Below are positions 1 through 63,183 of a stretch of DNA of 64,000 bases, in pieces. The notes below the pieces were generated by a model. That model saw only the letters and a list, made by a program, of their open reading frames with translations, was not told where the DNA came from and ran no database searches. Made by a program: the position numbers and the translations under genes. This DNA comes from a virus (taxonomy: Duplodnaviria; Heunggongvirae; Uroviricota; Caudoviricetes), in the IMG/VR virus record IMGVR_UViG_2684623127_000005. The stretch is one strand, 5' to 3'. Every line of letters starts with the position of its first letter. The stretch's first letter is position 1.

Positions 1-756
1 AGTGCCCTTAAGGAGTATGAGGATGCGGAACTGACAGCGGCGCGTATTGCTGCGGCGCTGGGACTGTATATCCGTAAAGGTGACGGACAGGACTATGAAG
101 ATCCGGGGATCAAAGAGACCGAGCGGGAAGTCCATATCACCCCGGGTATTATTTATGACGATTTGCGCAAGGGCGAGGATATCGGCATGGTCAAATCTGA
201 CCGTCCCAATCCCAACCTTGAAACTTTCCGCAACGGCCAGTTGCGTGCAGTGGCAGCAGGCAGTCGTCTGAGTTTTTCCAGTGCGGCGCGTAACTATAAC
301 GGCACCTACAGCGCCCAGCGGCAGGAGCTGGTCGAGTCCACGGATGGTTACCTGATCCTGCAGGACTGTTTTATTGGCGCGGTAACCCGCCCGGTGTACC
401 GGACATGGCTGAATATGGTGGTTGCGGCAGGTCTGCTGAAAATTCCGGCGGATGTGGAGATGAAAACGCTATATAACGCGACGTATTCCGGTCCGGTGAT
501 GCCGTGGATCGACCCGGTTAAGGAAGCTGAAGCCTGGAGAATTCAGATCCGGGGTGGTGCAGCGACAGAATCTGACTGGGTGCGTGCCGGTGGGCGCAAT
601 CCGGATGAGGTCAAACGTCGCCGCAAGGCTGAAATTGATGAAAACAGCAGACTGGGGCTGGTCTTTGATACTGACCCCGTCAACGACAAAGGAGGCAACA
701 GTGCCGGAACTGAACGACAGTATCAGCGCGACACCGAAAGCCAGCATGAAGAATAA
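1..756 (+). CDS. phage portal protein, C-terminal part (5'-truncated by window edge)
   Basis: Frame open from base 1 to stop at 754-756; translated tail is near-identical to the C-terminus of the complete portal at 45243..46745. Confidence 0.8.
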   Translation, partial: SALKEYEDAELTAARIAAALGLYIRKGDGQDYEDPGIKETEREVHITPGIIYDDLRKGEDIGMVKSDRPNPNLETFRNGQLRAVAAGSRLSFSSAARNYNGTYSAQRQELVESTDGYLILQDCFIGAVTRPVYRTWLNMVVAAGLLKIPADVEMKTLYNATYSGPVMPWIDPVKEAEAWRIQIRGGAATESDWVRAGGRNPDEVKRRRKAEIDENSRLGLVFDTDPVNDKGGNSAGTERQYQRDTESQHEE

Positions 757-2725
757 ATCCTGGTTCAGGATGCAAGCTGGGGGGCCGGGTGACGCGGATA
801 TTTATATTTATGACGAGATTGGTTTCTGGGGAGTTACCGCGAAGCAGTTTGTCAGCGAACTGAATGCACTGGGTGATATCACCCACATTAATCTCCATAT
901 CAATTCACCGGGTGGCGATGTCTTTGAAGGCATCGCCATTTTTAATGCCCTGAAAAATCAGGGGGCGACCATTACCGTGTATGTGGATGGCGTTGCCGCC
1001 TCGATGGCATCTGTGATTGCGATGGCCGGTGATACGGTCATTATGCCGGAAAATGCCTTCATGATGATCCATAAGCCATGGGGATTCAGTGGCGGGGATG
1101 CTGAGGATATGCGCAGTTATGCCGATTTGCTGGATAAAGTCGAATCGGTACTGTTGCCAGCCTATGCGCAGAAAACCGGAAAAACCACCGATGAAATTGC
1201 CGCCATGCTGGCGGATGAAACCTGGATGTCCGGTGCCGAATGTCTGGCACACGGATTTGCTGACCAGGTGACACCCGCTGTTGAGGCAATGGCATGTATT
1301 CAGTCAAAACGTACAGAGGAATTTAAAAAGATGCCGGAATCCATCCGAAACATGATTACTCCGCCACGCAACAGTGCCCCGCGTGATACCACAGTGACAA
1401 TCCCTGCACCGGCGGTAACAGAACCATCACCGGTACCGGCAGTGTCTGATGAGGCGACCATTCGCGCCCGCGTTATGGCTGAGCAGAAAGCCCGCATGTC
1501 AGGCATTAACGATCTGTTTGCCATGTTCGGCGGTCGCTATCAGACGCTTCAGGCACAGTGCGTGGCTGATCCTGACTGTTCGCTGGAAATGGCCCGTGAA
1601 CGTCTGCTGAATGAAATGGGCAAGGAGTCCTCGCCGACCAACAAAAATACACCGGCCCATATTTATGCCGGAAACGGCAATTTTGTGGGGGACGGGATCC
1701 GCCAGGCGATGCTGGCCCGTGCCGGATTTGAAAATGTCGAGAAGGATAACGCCTATAACGGGATGACCCTGCGTGAATGGGCTCGCATGTCACTGACGGA
1801 GCGCGGTATTGGGGTGGCCAGTTATAACCCCATGCAGATGGTCGGGCTGGCGCTGACGCACAGCACCTCTGATTTTGGCAATATTCTGCTGGATGTGTCG
1901 AACAAGGGGCTGATCCAGGGCTGGGAGGAATCAGAAGAAACCTTCCAGAAGTGGACCCGTAAGGGACGCCTGTCAGACTTCAAAACAGCGTATCGCGTGG
2001 GGATGGGCGGTTTTGGTTCTCTGCGCCAGGTTCGTGAGGGGGCGGAGTATAAATACATCACCACCTCAGATCGCAAGGAGACCATTGCACTGGCCACTTA
2101 CGGGGAGATTTTCTCCATCACCCGCCAGGCCATTATCAATGATGATCTGAATATGCTGGTGGACGTGCCGATGAAGATGGGGCGTGCGGCGAAGGCAACG
2201 ATTGGTGACCTGGTCTACAAGGTGCTGACGGATAACCCGAAACTGTCCGACGGTAAGGCGCTGTTCCATGCCGATCACAAAAATATTGCCACCGGGGGGA
2301 TCTCCGTTTCCGGACTGGATGCGGCCCGTCAGATGATGCGCCTGCAGAAAGAAGGCGATCGTGCCCTGAATATCCGTCCGGCCTTTATGCTGGTACCGGT
2401 GGCACTGGAGACGGTGGCGAACCAGACCATCAAATCGGCCAGTGTGAAAGGGGCGGATGCAAACGCCGGTGTCATTAACCCTATCCAGAACTTTGCTGAG
2501 GTGATTGCAGAAGCGCGTCTTGATGCGGCAGACCCGAAAACCTGGTATCTGGCGGCGGCACAGGGCACTGACACCATTGAAGTGGCCTGGCTGGATGGTG
2601 TGGACACGCCATACATTGATCAGCAGGAAGGTTTCACCACTGACGGCATTGCCACAAAAATCCGTATTGATGCCGGAGTGGCACCACTTGACTGGCGCGG
2701 GCTGGTGCGTTCGTCGGTGGCCTGA
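701..2725 (+). CDS. prohead protease (ClpP-like) / scaffold / major capsid fusion protein
   Basis: N-terminal ClpP-like serine protease signature (NSPGGDVFEGIAIFNAL...ASMAS), large C-terminal capsid-like domain; GTG start at 701 preceded by AAAGGAGG (alternative ATG at 746 overlapping portal stop); strong terminator downstream. Confidence 0.7.
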   Translation: MPELNDSISATPKASMKNKSWFRMQAGGPGDADIYIYDEIGFWGVTAKQFVSELNALGDITHINLHINSPGGDVFEGIAIFNALKNQGATITVYVDGVAASMASVIAMAGDTVIMPENAFMMIHKPWGFSGGDAEDMRSYADLLDKVESVLLPAYAQKTGKTTDEIAAMLADETWMSGAECLAHGFADQVTPAVEAMACIQSKRTEEFKKMPESIRNMITPPRNSAPRDTTVTIPAPAVTEPSPVPAVSDEATIRARVMAEQKARMSGINDLFAMFGGRYQTLQAQCVADPDCSLEMARERLLNEMGKESSPTNKNTPAHIYAGNGNFVGDGIRQAMLARAGFENVEKDNAYNGMTLREWARMSLTERGIGVASYNPMQMVGLALTHSTSDFGNILLDVSNKGLIQGWEESEETFQKWTRKGRLSDFKTAYRVGMGGFGSLRQVREGAEYKYITTSDRKETIALATYGEIFSITRQAIINDDLNMLVDVPMKMGRAAKATIGDLVYKVLTDNPKLSDGKALFHADHKNIATGGISVSGLDAARQMMRLQKEGDRALNIRPAFMLVPVALETVANQTIKSASVKGADANAGVINPIQNFAEVIAEARLDAADPKTWYLAAAQGTDTIEVAWLDGVDTPYIDQQEGFTTDGIATKIRIDAGVAPLDWRGLVRSSVA

Positions 2726-2747
2726 TAACCGCGTTATCACAATCACT

Positions 2748-2766
2748 GCCCGAAAGGGCTTTTTTT
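2748..2766 (+). terminator. rho-independent terminator after capsid gene
   Basis: GCCCGAAAGGGC hairpin followed by run of 7 T. Confidence 0.6.
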
Positions 2767-2812
2767 ATGCCTGAAAAACAGCCCCACAGGGGCTGTCCGG
2801 AGAAACAGCATT

Positions 2813-3139
2813 ATGGCGAAAAATTTTGTACAGGACGGTACCACCATTGAACTGGTGAATGCCGGAGATCAGACCATCCTGAGCGGTGCTGCGGTGGTGG
2901 TCGGCAGTATGGTGGCCGTGGCCATTACCGATATTCCTGCCGGTGAGGCCGGTGACGGTTTTGCCGAAGGCGTGTTCCTGCTGCCCAAACAGTCTGCTGA
3001 CGACATTCAGTCCGGCGCGGTGGTTTATCTGAAGGACGGGGTTGTGCAGCTGGCTGCAGACGGTGCGGTGGCAGCGGGGGTAGCCTGGGAAAATGCCCCT
3101 GCAAACAGCGCCACTGTGGCGGTAAAAATCAATGTCTGA
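2813..3139 (+). CDS. small head-associated structural protein (DUF2190-like, Ala/Gly/Val-rich)
   Basis: Position between capsid gene and tail-completion genes (lambda FI/D-like slot); composition typical of head decoration/completion proteins. Confidence 0.45.
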   Translation: MAKNFVQDGTTIELVNAGDQTILSGAAVVVGSMVAVAITDIPAGEAGDGFAEGVFLLPKQSADDIQSGAVVYLKDGVVQLAADGAVAAGVAWENAPANSATVAVKINV

Positions 3140-62771: not shown

Positions 62772-62772
62772 C

Positions 62773-63042
62773 ATGAATATACTAAAAAAACTTATGCAGC
62801 GTCTGTGTGGTTGCGGAAAGCATGATGACCGTGAACACGGGGAGTTACTTACAGCACAGCTGCGACTGGGGCCGGCAGACATCCTGGAGTCAGATGAGAA
62901 TGGCATTATCCCGGAGCAGGACAGGGTAATCACGCAGGTGGTGATACTGGATGCGGATAAAAAGCAGATACAGTGCGTGGTAAGACCGCTGCAAATCCTG
63001 CGTGCTGACGGGAGGTGGGAAAATATTGGCGGAATGAAATAG
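62773..63042 (+). CDS. hypothetical protein downstream of tail fibre (copy 2)
   Basis: Near-identical to 16796..17065. Confidence 0.4.
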   Translation: MNILKKLMQRLCGCGKHDDREHGELLTAQLRLGPADILESDENGIIPEQDRVITQVVILDADKKQIQCVVRPLQILRADGRWENIGGMK

Positions 63043-63060
63043 CCGACAGCTTCACAAAAA

Positions 63061-63083
63061 CCGGAGTCCGGCTCCGGTTTTTT
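63061..63083 (+). terminator. rho-independent terminator ending tail operon (copy 2)
   Basis: CCGGAG..CTCCGG + T6. Confidence 0.55.
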
Positions 63084-63183
63084 GTTGTCATGTCCGGTGG
63101 ATGTTTGTTAGGAATGTTCAGACAGGTTTATTTTGAATTTACACAGAATCCTAAACAGGTTCGAGAATTAAGAAAGAGGTTGT

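What the first reader, a model, noticed from the sequence alone, without database searches (positions are those of the whole stretch)
1..63112. Two tandem lambdoid prophages sharing a ~17 kb near-identical morphogenesis module
Positions 1-17135 and 45990-63112 are collinear and differ only by scattered substitutions and the J indels. Such long direct repeats 46 kb apart are substrates for RecA-mediated deletion (excising prophage B plus the NleC cargo) and for assembly collapse. Functional genes in one copy (J) can complement defects in the other, so the pair may behave as one mosaic unit on induction.
Basis: seen in the sequence. Interest (0 to 1): 0.5.

Follow-up and report, generated by a model that had tools for sequence, protein, structure and literature searches.

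The report
Adjacent lambdoid prophages sharing tail genes
Two lambda-like prophages lie side by side in a pathogenic-type E. coli chromosome and share a 17-kb head-and-tail gene block; this is real but ordinary for these bacteria, and the arrangement has already been described in the literature.

Summary
The repeat is real. Window 1-17134 and 45990-63110 are collinear direct repeats, about 96.7% identical, and copy A is cut by the window edge. Identity is bimodal: 99.4% over the first 7.5 kb, including a 3,670-bp perfect run, and 94.5% over the tail-tip part. That near-identity is family-wide. Prophages at other loci in other genomes match equally well, and A and B share almost no private variants.

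Prophage B (19653 to past 64000) is an ompW-integrating lambdoid prophage ("PPompW"). It is intact except for a frameshifted J and a frameshifted antirepressor.

Prophage A is probably not a simple tandem partner. Its right end stops at a 21-bp secondary att site (19325-19345) whose left flank is a phage arm. That marks a yecE-type phage inserted into PPompW DNA, the "prophage-in-prophage" of Nakamura 2021. NleC is A's cargo.

Recombination between the copies would delete 45,989 bp. It would most likely keep the broken J and lose the intact J and nleC. The reciprocal circle would be a complete J+ nleC+ phage genome.

The J frameshift allele is identical in about 297 database records, so it is not a sequencing error.

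Verdict: already known, low interest.

The parts
1..17134 (+). Copy A of the lambda-like morphogenesis module: portal C-terminal half (1-756, cut by the window edge), ClpP-capsid fusion 746-2725, head-tail joining genes 2813-4039, U 4052-4450, V 4458-5210, G/T 5224-5981, tape measure H 6025-8670, M 8667-8996, L 8996-9694, K 9705-10448, I 10445-11026, J 11273-14749 (intact), Lom 14817-15416, tail fibre 15481-17065
   Evidence: Self-BLAST. Full-length gap-free tblastn matches to annotated proteins. Pfam.
11273..14749 (+). J (tail-tip attachment protein) of copy A, intact, 1158 aa
   Evidence: ORF; six gpJ Pfam domains; gap-free match to an annotated 1158-aa J.
17495..18481 (+). nleC, T3SS effector zinc protease (328 aa, HEIIH motif). 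Cargo at the right end of prophage A.
   Evidence: Pfam Peptidase_M85, E=1.4e-112. RefSeq annotation of homologous loci. Motif read directly from the sequence.
18853..19101 (-). DinI-like gene, with a LexA-box-like CTGTGGTTATATACAG at 19117-19132 just upstream
   Evidence: Annotation of homologous loci. Pattern search.
19325..19345 (+). 21-bp att core (attB-in-PP_1 / yecE type), here in attR configuration (phage arm on the left, host-type flank on the right). This is the right boundary of prophage A.
   Evidence: Exact match. Flank comparison with occupied and unoccupied sites. Homology to OkiPb01717 starts exactly at 19325 (H42).
19346..19652 (+). P arm of PPompW-type phage DNA, lying between the 21-bp site and the ompW-type core
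   Evidence: Identical in the OkiPb01717, FDAARGOS_293, F6294 and PV15-279 loci.
19653..19773 (+). ompW-type att. The 28-bp core CAGTGTGGTACATGGATATCGATACCAC (19653-19680) is followed by the phage-borne substitute for the ompW 3' end. The whole 121 bp is 83% identical to K-12 ompW.
   Evidence: The core and the 121-bp att agree with PMC2669165 and PMC8112680.
19843..21199 (-). Integrase (19843-20973) and excisionase (20951-21199) of prophage B, both of PPompW type
   Evidence: 100% identical to WP_000113674.1 and WP_000113189.1, which lie next to ompW in other genomes. Pfam lambda-integrase arm-binding and catalytic domains.
21264..45243 (.). Prophage B early, regulatory, lysis and packaging region: exonuclease, dicB, cI/cro-like, O/P-like, kinase/phosphatase moron, Q 34224-35045, methylase 35620-36678, esterase 37182-39128, holin and lysozyme, antirepressor pseudogene 40833-41400, Rz, TerS 42438-42914, TerL 42911-45034. 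There is no stx and no tRNA.
   Evidence: 100% protein identity to the second ompW prophage of OkiPb01717 for nearly all genes. Also.
45990..63110 (+). Copy B of the morphogenesis module. The full portal gene starts at 45243. Gene order is the same as in copy A.
57248..60726 (+). J pseudogene of copy B. A 1-bp deletion at 58356 (GTGGCC[G]TACACC) splits it at codon 370/371.
   Evidence: The same allele is 100% identical in other records, where J is annotated 'frameshifted'.
63248..64000 (+). IS1 inserted downstream of B's tail-fibre genes, cut about 15 bp short by the window end
   Evidence: Inverted-repeat match. 100% identical to the IS1 transposase at the same place in relatives.

Best explanation
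The window shows part of a prophage cluster of the kind found at the ompW locus of LEE-positive E. coli.

Prophage B (19653 to beyond 64000) is a lambda-like 'PPompW'. Its lambda-type integrase and excisionase sit beside the 28-bp core and the phage-borne substitute for the ompW 3' end.

Prophage A is visible only from mid-portal to its right end. It is a second lambdoid phage whose right boundary is the 21-bp attR at 19325-19345. It therefore entered by site-specific recombination at the secondary attachment site (attB-in-PP_1, derived from yecE) that PPompW-type DNA carries 307 bp upstream of its own att core. That makes the arrangement 'prophage-in-prophage' next to a PPompW, not two phages at one att. 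NleC and DinI are A's terminal cargo.

The shared 17+ kb is the lambda-type head/tail module that circulates, almost invariant in its head and tail-shaft part and patchily mosaic in its tail-tip part, among many STEC prophages. It is not a duplication and not a product of homogenisation within this genome.

Inferred consequences:
(a) Homologous recombination (RecA or phage recombinases) between the copies would delete exactly 45,989 bp. The crossover would most likely fall in the 3.67-kb perfect run. The chromosome would keep an A-left/B-right chimera with the broken J, and would lose the intact J, nleC, dinI, both att sites and B's early genes.
(b) The reciprocal circle would be a complete phage genome of about 46 kb: B's int, immunity, replication, lysis and terminase, an intact ompW-type attP, and A's intact J and nleC.
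(c) On co-induction, tails built from A's genes can join B's heads, because every head-tail joining and tail-shaft protein from the DUF2190 head protein through V is 100% identical in the two copies.
For: Shown by tool results:
- Repeat and its bimodal identity.
- Lambda-type gene order and families (gpA terminase, lambda portal, Z, U, V, G/T, H, M, L, K, I, J, Lom).
- B's Int and Xis are 100% identical to those next to ompW elsewhere, and B's proteins are 100% identical to the second ompW prophage of OkiPb01717.
- The 28-bp core and the P-core-P' structure at 19346-19842, compared with bacterial-type attR in relatives.
- The 21-bp site has the phage-arm left flank seen at attR of the yecE prophage in Z866, of the Stx2a phage in PV15-279 and in F6294. 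Unoccupied sites (OkiPb01717, FDAARGOS_293) and PV15-279 attL have a different left flank.
- Homology to OkiPb01717 begins exactly at 19325.
- The head part is 0-2 mismatches per 500 bp versus prophages in other genomes and at other loci.
- Copy A's tape-measure protein is identical to one in O157:H7 prophages at another locus.
- Only 5 of about 17,000 25-mers are shared by A and B yet absent from 26 reference loci.
- The module is present at 80% or greater coverage in 413 of 5,426 genomes, with a median of 4 matching places per genome.

Literature:
- PPompW, its 121-bp att, attB-in-PP_1, nleC-carrying inserted phages and tandem PPompWs: PMC8112680.
- 28-bp core of Sp9, and complementation and recombination between prophages: PMC2669165.
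- 47.7-kb deletion between adjacent prophages through a direct repeat: PMC7430833.
Against: A's left end (attL, integrase, immunity region, any stx) lies outside the window. The insertion is therefore inferred from one junction only.

A remnant of the same phage arm plus the 21-bp site exists in YB14-1 next to a prophage of a different head type. This right end can evidently be carried onto other prophages by recombination.

B's attR and the chromosomal flank (yciE) are also outside the window. In PV15-279 and MA11 the same junction sits in rearranged clusters, next to ydfJ in PV15-279 and next to ynfA in MA11.

No read data or induction data exist, so consequences (a) to (c) are inference. 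The cos site was not identified.
Confidence: 0.75

Rival explanations
1. Plain tandem double lysogen. Both A and B are PPompW phages integrated one after the other at the same ompW core. On this reading nleC-dinI is A's own effector locus and the 21-bp site is an unoccupied secondary attB.
For: The junction 19346-19842 has exactly the P-core-P' structure expected between two Int-integrated tandem prophages. Tandem PPompW pairs exist in OkiPb01717, YB14-1 and FDAARGOS_293. About 5 of 60 sampled PPompW-carrying genomes show three att places.
Against: The left flank of the 21-bp site is the phage arm found at attR of yecE-located and PPompW-inserted phages. It is not the flank of unoccupied sites. 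The paper reports nleA, nleH, nleF, espM and nleG in PPompW effector loci, and nleC on the inserted phages. Z866 carries the same late region, nleC and dinI at yecE with no PPompW involved.
Confidence: 0.1
2. A is already a chimera. An earlier deletion between the late module of a host PPompW and that of a phage inserted in it fused PPompW early genes to the inserted phage's tail, nleC and attR end. On this reading the visible pair is PPompW-derived on both sides.
For: The same logic that predicts the A/B deletion applies to a host PPompW and its insert. YB14-1 keeps only a remnant of the phage arm beside the 21-bp site, so such ends persist after loss of the rest. F6294 has the nleC end next to ompW'-yciE, with late-regulatory genes 93-94% identical to B's.
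Against: Nothing in the window tests this. In PV15-279, the genome with the closest junction, the A-like element is a complete Stx2a phage with its own integrase.
Confidence: 0.12
3. The two copies were homogenised inside this genome, by recent gene conversion or segmental duplication. That would explain the 99.4% identity of the first 7.5 kb.
For: A 3,670-bp perfect run and 99.43% identity over 7.5 kb.
Against: The same 7.5 kb is equally identical to prophages in other strains and at other loci. B equals OkiPb01717 B with 0 mismatches over its first 9 kb. A and B share essentially no private variants. Over its full length A's best matches elsewhere are at least as close (97.6-97.9%) as B is (96.7%).
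Confidence: 0.03
4. Assembly artefact: one prophage late region was written twice, or two unlinked prophages were mis-joined.
For: A 3.67-kb perfect repeat exceeds short-read length, so mis-joins are possible in principle. No reads are available.
Against: The copies differ at more than 500 positions and have different unique flanks. The junction has a precise att architecture. The same tail-fibre/nleC/dinI/21-bp/ompW'/int junction occurs in three independent complete genomes.
Confidence: 0.02

Closest known systems
Prophage-in-prophage clusters at PPompW (attB-in-PP_1), Nakamura et al. 2021, PLoS Pathog, PMC8112680
   Same: The same 21-bp core sequence with an occupied-site (attR) flank signature. 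The inserted lambdoid phage carries nleC. The same PPompW integrase and 121-bp ompW att lie immediately downstream. PV15-279, analysed in that paper, has a 99.5%-identical junction.
   Different: Here the neighbour downstream of the inserted phage is a B-type PPompW that shares the same lambda-type head/tail module, giving a direct repeat of at least 17 kb. In PV15-279 and MA11 the prophage in the corresponding position has an HK97-type head. Whether A carries stx is unknown. This exact combination is not in the 5,426 complete genomes searched.
Tandem PPompW pairs in O157:H7 and other STEC (type a1 of PMC8112680; OkiPb01717, YB14-1, FDAARGOS_293)
   Same: B is 98.6-99.2% identical to the second PPompW of these pairs, including the IS1 after the tail fibre. 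The P-core-P' middle junction is identical.
   Different: In those genomes the 21-bp site before B is unoccupied (OkiPb01717, FDAARGOS_293) or keeps only a remnant (YB14-1). The first prophage has other cargo (espM1, nleG, nleA and others). In YB14-1 and FDAARGOS_293 it has an HK97-type head. J of B is intact in OkiPb01717 and YB14-1.
Deletions between adjacent O157:H7 prophages (Phi804-9/Phi804-10, 47.7 kb, PMC7430833; Sp11-Sp12 of Sakai, Chen et al. 2013, cited there)
   Same: Adjacent co-oriented lambdoid prophages with direct repeats. The observed deletion is about one prophage length, like the 45,989 bp predicted here.
   Different: Those deletions were observed experimentally and used an 822-bp repeat. 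Here the deletion is only predicted, and the repeat is far longer (perfect runs up to 3,670 bp).
Defective prophage pool of O157 Sakai (Asadulghani et al. 2009, PMC2669165), including Sp9, the PPompW of Sakai
   Same: Near-identical morphogenetic genes are shared among lambdoid prophages. Frameshift defects are complemented in trans. Recombinant phages arise on induction. Copy B's J carries the very frameshift allele found in Sp9-like prophages.
   Different: No functional data exist for this strain. Only a patch of about 750 bp around the frameshift matches the Sp9-like J.
Classical lambda tandem double lysogens (textbook lambda genetics; my own knowledge, not checked here)
   Same: Two co-oriented unit-length genomes separated by an attP-like junction. 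General recombination between them, or cos-to-cos cutting, releases a unit-length genome without Int or Xis.
   Different: The two units here are different phages with, probably, different integrases and att sites. The cos sites were not mapped.

Membership tests
Lambdoid (lambda-like siphovirus) prophage, both A and B | Lambda-type morphogenesis gene order and families: Nu1-like, gpA, W, portal B, protease/capsid, Z, U, V, G/T, H, M, L, K, I, J, lom, stf | tested here: met
   Pfam GpA_ATPase and GpA_nuclease, Phage_portal_2 and six gpJ domains. Minor_tail_Z, Phage_tail_U, Phage_TAC_2, Phage_tail_T, TMP_2, Phage_min_tail, Phage_tail_L, Lambda_tail_I and Ail_Lom on identical or near-identical proteins. 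Order confirmed in both copies.
Lambdoid prophage, B only | Lambda-like early organisation: int-xis, exo, cI/cro, O/P-type replication, Q antiterminator, lysis cassette | tested here: met
   All are present and full-length by tblastn against annotated proteins. Integrase Pfam domains confirmed.
PPompW (ompW-integrating lambda-like prophage), B | PPompW-type integrase adjacent to the 121-bp ompW-derived att with the 28-bp core | tested here: met
   Int is 100% identical to WP_000113674.1, found next to ompW in YB14-1 and OkiPb01717. Core at 19653-19680, and the 121 bp are 83% identical to K-12 ompW.
PPompW, B | Right end bounded by the bacterial-type ompW 3' fragment next to yciE | not testable with these tools
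   The window ends inside IS1, about 2 kb before the expected attR. Relatives have IS1, an nleH-family gene, ompW' and then yciE.
Phage integrated at attB-in-PP_1 (yecE-type att), A | 21-bp core at the prophage boundary, with a phage arm on the inner side and a host-type flank on the outer side (attR) | tested here: met
   Exact 21-mer at 19325-19345. The left flank is identical to attR of Z866 (yecE), PV15-279 and F6294, and differs from unoccupied sites.
Phage integrated at attB-in-PP_1, A | Matching attL and a yecE-type tyrosine integrase at the left end | not testable with these tools
   A's left part lies outside the window. It is seen only in the proxy genome PV15-279.
Simple tandem double lysogen at one att site | Both prophages bounded by the same att core, with nothing but att between them | tested here: not met
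   A ends at the 21-bp site, 307 bp before the ompW-type core. The P-core-P' junction belongs to PPompW-type DNA, not to A.
Shiga-toxin-converting phage | stxA/stxB between the Q/methylase region and the esterase and lysis genes | tested here: not met
   For B: the 503 bp between the methylase (ends 36678) and the esterase (starts 37182) hold no ORF of 80 aa or more and no tRNA. For A this region lies outside the window, so A is untested. The A-like phage of PV15-279 does carry stx2a.

The most novel reading that the evidence does not exclude
The A/B pair may act as a cargo-swapping and repair unit. Recombination in the shared late module, or cos-to-cos packaging in place, would release a 45,989-bp hybrid genome. 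That genome would combine B's integrase, immunity, replication and lysis genes and an intact ompW-type attP with A's functional J and the nleC effector locus. This would move nleC from a yecE-type phage onto an ompW-type phage and rescue the J-defective B in a single step. It would be a concrete route for 'exchangeable effector loci'.
Probability: 0.2. Interest if true: 0.35.

Novelty: already known. Interest (0 to 1): 0.15.

Why it matters
The practical points are these:
- The region cannot be assembled from short reads, because it contains a 3.67-kb perfect repeat.
- Loss of nleC and of one prophage-equivalent by a 46-kb deletion is a plausible source of strain-to-strain variation.
- The unseen left part of prophage A belongs to a class of phages that often carry stx, so the full locus is worth checking in the source genome.

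None of this changes current understanding. Prophage clusters at ompW, secondary att sites inside prophages, shared late modules, deletions between adjacent prophages and complementation in trans have all been published.

Tried and rejected
- Looked for the source genome to see what lies left of the window. No complete E. coli genome matches at 100%. The best are 98-99.5% and cover only parts.
- Exact-protein look-ups of A's capsid and tape-measure proteins returned hundreds of unrelated O157 loci, not the source.
- Used MA11 as a proxy for A's left end. It has an HK97-type head prophage there, so it is not comparable.
- Searched for the lambda cos sequence GGGCGGCGACCT. Hits were no better than chance, so cos was not mapped.
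- My first reading was that the 21-bp site is an unoccupied attB and that A and B are plain tandem PPompWs. I dropped it after the flank comparison.
- Considered intragenomic gene conversion as the cause of the 99.4% block. Rejected.
- Considered a sequencing error as the cause of the J frameshift. Rejected because the deletion is not in a homopolymer and the same 121-bp allele is 100% identical in other independent assemblies, within the 297 records matching at 99% or better.
- Chen et al. 2013 on the Sp11-Sp12 deletions could not be read. It is cited only through PMC7430833 and PMC8743559.

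
Full report
**Observation.** A self-BLAST of the window gives a single internal repeat: 1-17134 against 45990-63110, same strand, 96.73% identity, 514 mismatches, E=0. Copy A begins at window base 1 inside the portal gene, so the repeat is truncated by the window. In relatives of A, homology to the DNA upstream of copy B continues at least 4.4 kb further (Rz, TerS, TerL, W, portal) at 98.8-99.7%. The true repeat is therefore probably longer than 21 kb, though this is inferred from proxy genomes.

Divergence is bimodal. A 1-7500 is 99.43% identical to B, with perfect runs of 3,670 bp (A 1604-5273 / B 47593-51262), 822, 611 and 509 bp. A 7501-17134 is 94.45% identical. MAFFT finds 12 indel events and only three lie in J.

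**Gene content.** Both copies carry the lambda-type late genes in lambda order: portal, ClpP-capsid fusion, head-tail joining genes, Z, U, V, G/T, H, M, L, K, I, J, Lom and a two-part tail fibre. Every gene is full-length in both copies except J of copy B. A 1-bp deletion (GTGGCC[G]TACACC, B 58356) splits that gene at codon 370/371.

The deletion is not in a homopolymer. The 121 bp around it are 100% identical in other complete genomes, within 297 records matching at 99% or better. These include Sp9-like ompW prophages of O157:H7, where J is annotated 'frameshifted'. Only about 750 bp around the lesion match that J closely. The frameshift is therefore a real allele circulating in the prophage pool, not a sequencing error.

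**Prophage B.** From 19843 rightward lie int and xis (100% identical to the pair found next to ompW in other genomes), exonuclease, dicB, cI/cro-like genes, O/P-like genes, Q, a methylase, an esterase, lysis genes, a gpA-family terminase and a lambda-family portal. Nearly all are 100% identical in protein to the second ompW prophage of OkiPb01717. A second pseudogene, the antirepressor (40833-41400), is shared with those relatives. There is no stx and no tRNA between the methylase and the esterase. An IS1 follows the tail fibre at 63248, as in the relatives.

Left of int lies the 121-bp ompW-derived att (19653-19773, 83% to K-12 ompW). Its first 28 bp, CAGTGTGGTACATGGATATCGATACCAC, are the only part common to phage and chromosome. 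This agrees with the 28-bp core determined experimentally for Sp9 (PMC2669165) and with the 121-bp att of 'PPompW' (PMC8112680). A PPompW-type int beside this att occurs in 1,705 of 5,426 complete E. coli genomes.

**Prophage A's right end, and the main correction.** Downstream of A's tail fibre lie nleC (17495-18481; Peptidase_M85, E=1e-112; HEIIH motif present), a DinI-like gene with a LexA-type box, and then the 21-mer GTCATGCAGTTAAAGTGGCGG at 19325-19345. [quoted passage not shown] Those phages often carry stx and often carry nleC.

I first took the site in the window to be unoccupied. A comparison of flanks shows otherwise. Unoccupied sites (OkiPb01717, FDAARGOS_293) read ...gattgtttaaatagccct|21-mer|gcatcctcttc.... 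The attL of the Stx2a phage inserted in PV15-279 has that same left flank, followed by a phage arm and a yecE-type integrase. The window instead reads ...cgtcgatttttaaaaatgttgc|21-mer|gcatcctcttc.... That is identical to the attR of the PV15-279 phage, to F6294, and to the prophage sitting at the chromosomal yecE locus of Z866. Consistently, homology between the window and OkiPb01717 starts exactly at 19325.

Prophage A therefore ends at 19345. Positions 19346-19652 are the P arm of PPompW-type DNA. The cluster is a phage inserted at a secondary att site beside, or within, PPompW DNA, rather than two phages at one att.

What lies to A's left cannot be seen. It could be a host PPompW with its effector locus, as in OkiPb01717 or FDAARGOS_293 with an added insert. 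A could also already be a chimera. YB14-1 keeps only a remnant of the same phage arm, which shows that this end can outlive the rest of the phage.

**Is the similarity specific to this pair?** No.
- The first 7.5 kb of both copies differ by 0-2 mismatches per 500 bp from prophages in other strains and at other loci (OkiPb01717, YB14-1, Z866 at yecE). The tail-tip half is a patchwork in which the nearest relative changes every few hundred bases.
- Copy A's tape-measure protein is identical to that of O157:H7 prophages at a different locus, next to a histidine-kinase gene.
- Copy B is 99.2% identical to OkiPb01717 B. Copy A is 97.6-97.9% identical to other prophages, against 96.7% to B.
- Only 5 of about 17,000 25-mers are shared by A and B yet absent from 26 reference loci.
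- The module occurs at 80% or greater coverage in 413 genomes, with a median of four matching places per genome.

The pair is thus two draws from a common pool, not a duplication or a locally homogenised pair.

**Mechanistic consequences (inference).** Direct repeats of this length and identity are ample substrates for homologous recombination. A 47.7-kb deletion between two adjacent O157:H7 prophages through an 822-bp repeat has been documented, and similar Sp11-Sp12 deletions are cited (PMC7430833).

Here a crossover would delete 45,989 bp. Identical runs of 200 bp or more total 6.8 kb upstream of the J frameshift and 0.8 kb downstream. The survivor would therefore most likely be an A-left/B-right chimera that keeps the broken J. 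It would lose the intact J, nleC, dinI, both att sites and B's early genes. This is not simply 'excision of B'.

The reciprocal circle would contain each essential gene once. It would carry B's int-to-portal region, an intact P-core-P' attP, A's functional tail tip and nleC, at about the unit length of B (about 45.9 kb in OkiPb01717).

Tails assemble separately from heads, and every head-tail joining and tail-shaft protein from the DUF2190 head protein through V is 100% identical in the two copies. Tails from A could therefore serve B's heads if both prophages are induced together. Such complementation is documented for O157 Sakai (PMC2669165).

**Artefact check.** More than 500 differences, distinct flanks, a precise att architecture, and the same junction in three independent complete genomes (PV15-279, MA11, RM12367-C1) all argue against an assembly artefact. 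No reads were available to confirm this directly.

**Verdict.** It also over-reads the pairwise similarity. Every element has been described before: PPompW, attB-in-PP_1, nleC-carrying inserted phages, shared late modules, deletions between adjacent prophages, and complementation. This is a further instance of a known arrangement and is of low interest.

Noticed in passing
window 29904-31398 (- strand): A low-GC (about 40%) two-gene insert in prophage B's early region: a Ser/Thr protein kinase (264 aa; Pkinase; PADLOC PD-T4-6, E=1e-32, also mad6 and Stk2 models) overlapping a PP2C phosphatase (238 aa). It looks like a phage-borne kinase-type exclusion or defence module. It is 100% conserved in OkiPb01717 and YB14-1.
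   Followed up: partly
window 19776-19836: A 13-bp tandem repeat CTCTGCAAAACCC between the ompW' stop codon and the terminator hairpin of int. The window has 4.8 copies where OkiPb01717, YB14-1 and PV15-279 have about 2.8. It lies in the P' arm next to the att core and could be integrase arm-type sites or just a variable repeat. Unexplained.
   Followed up: partly
window 58000-58750: The J frameshift of copy B sits in a patch of about 750 bp that is nearly identical (0-5 mismatches per 250 bp) to the J pseudogene of Sp9-like O157:H7 prophages. The flanking J sequence is about 5% diverged. A pseudogene allele has apparently spread by short-patch recombination.
   Followed up: yes
window 40833-41400: The antirepressor gene of prophage B is frameshifted (residues 1-130 in one frame, 132-189 in another). 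The same lesion is annotated in the OkiPb01717 and YB14-1 relatives, so it is inherited.
   Followed up: yes
window 36679-37181: The slot between the methylase and the esterase holds tRNA genes in related prophages (PV15-279, YB14-1, F6294) and, in PV15-279's Stx2a phage, stx2a as well. In prophage B it is only 503 bp, with no tRNA and no ORF of 80 aa or more.
   Followed up: partly
window 63248-64000: IS1 (left inverted repeat at 63248-63270, one mismatch) is inserted 137 bp after the end of the A/B homology. It is 100% identical and at the same position in several O103, O121 and O157 genomes, where it is followed by an OspG/NleH-family effector gene.
   Followed up: partly
window 19117-19132 and 18853-19101 (-): A LexA-box-like palindrome CTGTGGTTATATACAG lies 16 bp upstream of the DinI-like gene at A's right end, suggesting SOS-regulated cargo. 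The pattern CTGT-N8-ACAG occurs 8 times in the window against 0.8 expected.
   Followed up: no
window 21264-23735 (-): The 823-aa exonuclease of prophage B is only 94% identical to its OkiPb01717 counterpart, while the flanking genes are 98-100% identical. This is another local mosaic patch.
   Followed up: no
L024 (PV15-279, 2057000-2092000) and L001: In PV15-279, the genome with the closest junction, the A-like element is a complete Stx2a phage with a yecE-type integrase, inserted in the effector locus (nleA, nleG, espM1) of an Sp9-like prophage. The unseen left part of the window's prophage A could therefore carry stx.
   Followed up: partly
window 16426-16516 and 62403-62493: A 45-bp repeat (two copies, reading [18 protein letters not shown], i.e. 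collagen-like) lies inside the tail-fibre N-terminal gene of both copies.
   Followed up: no
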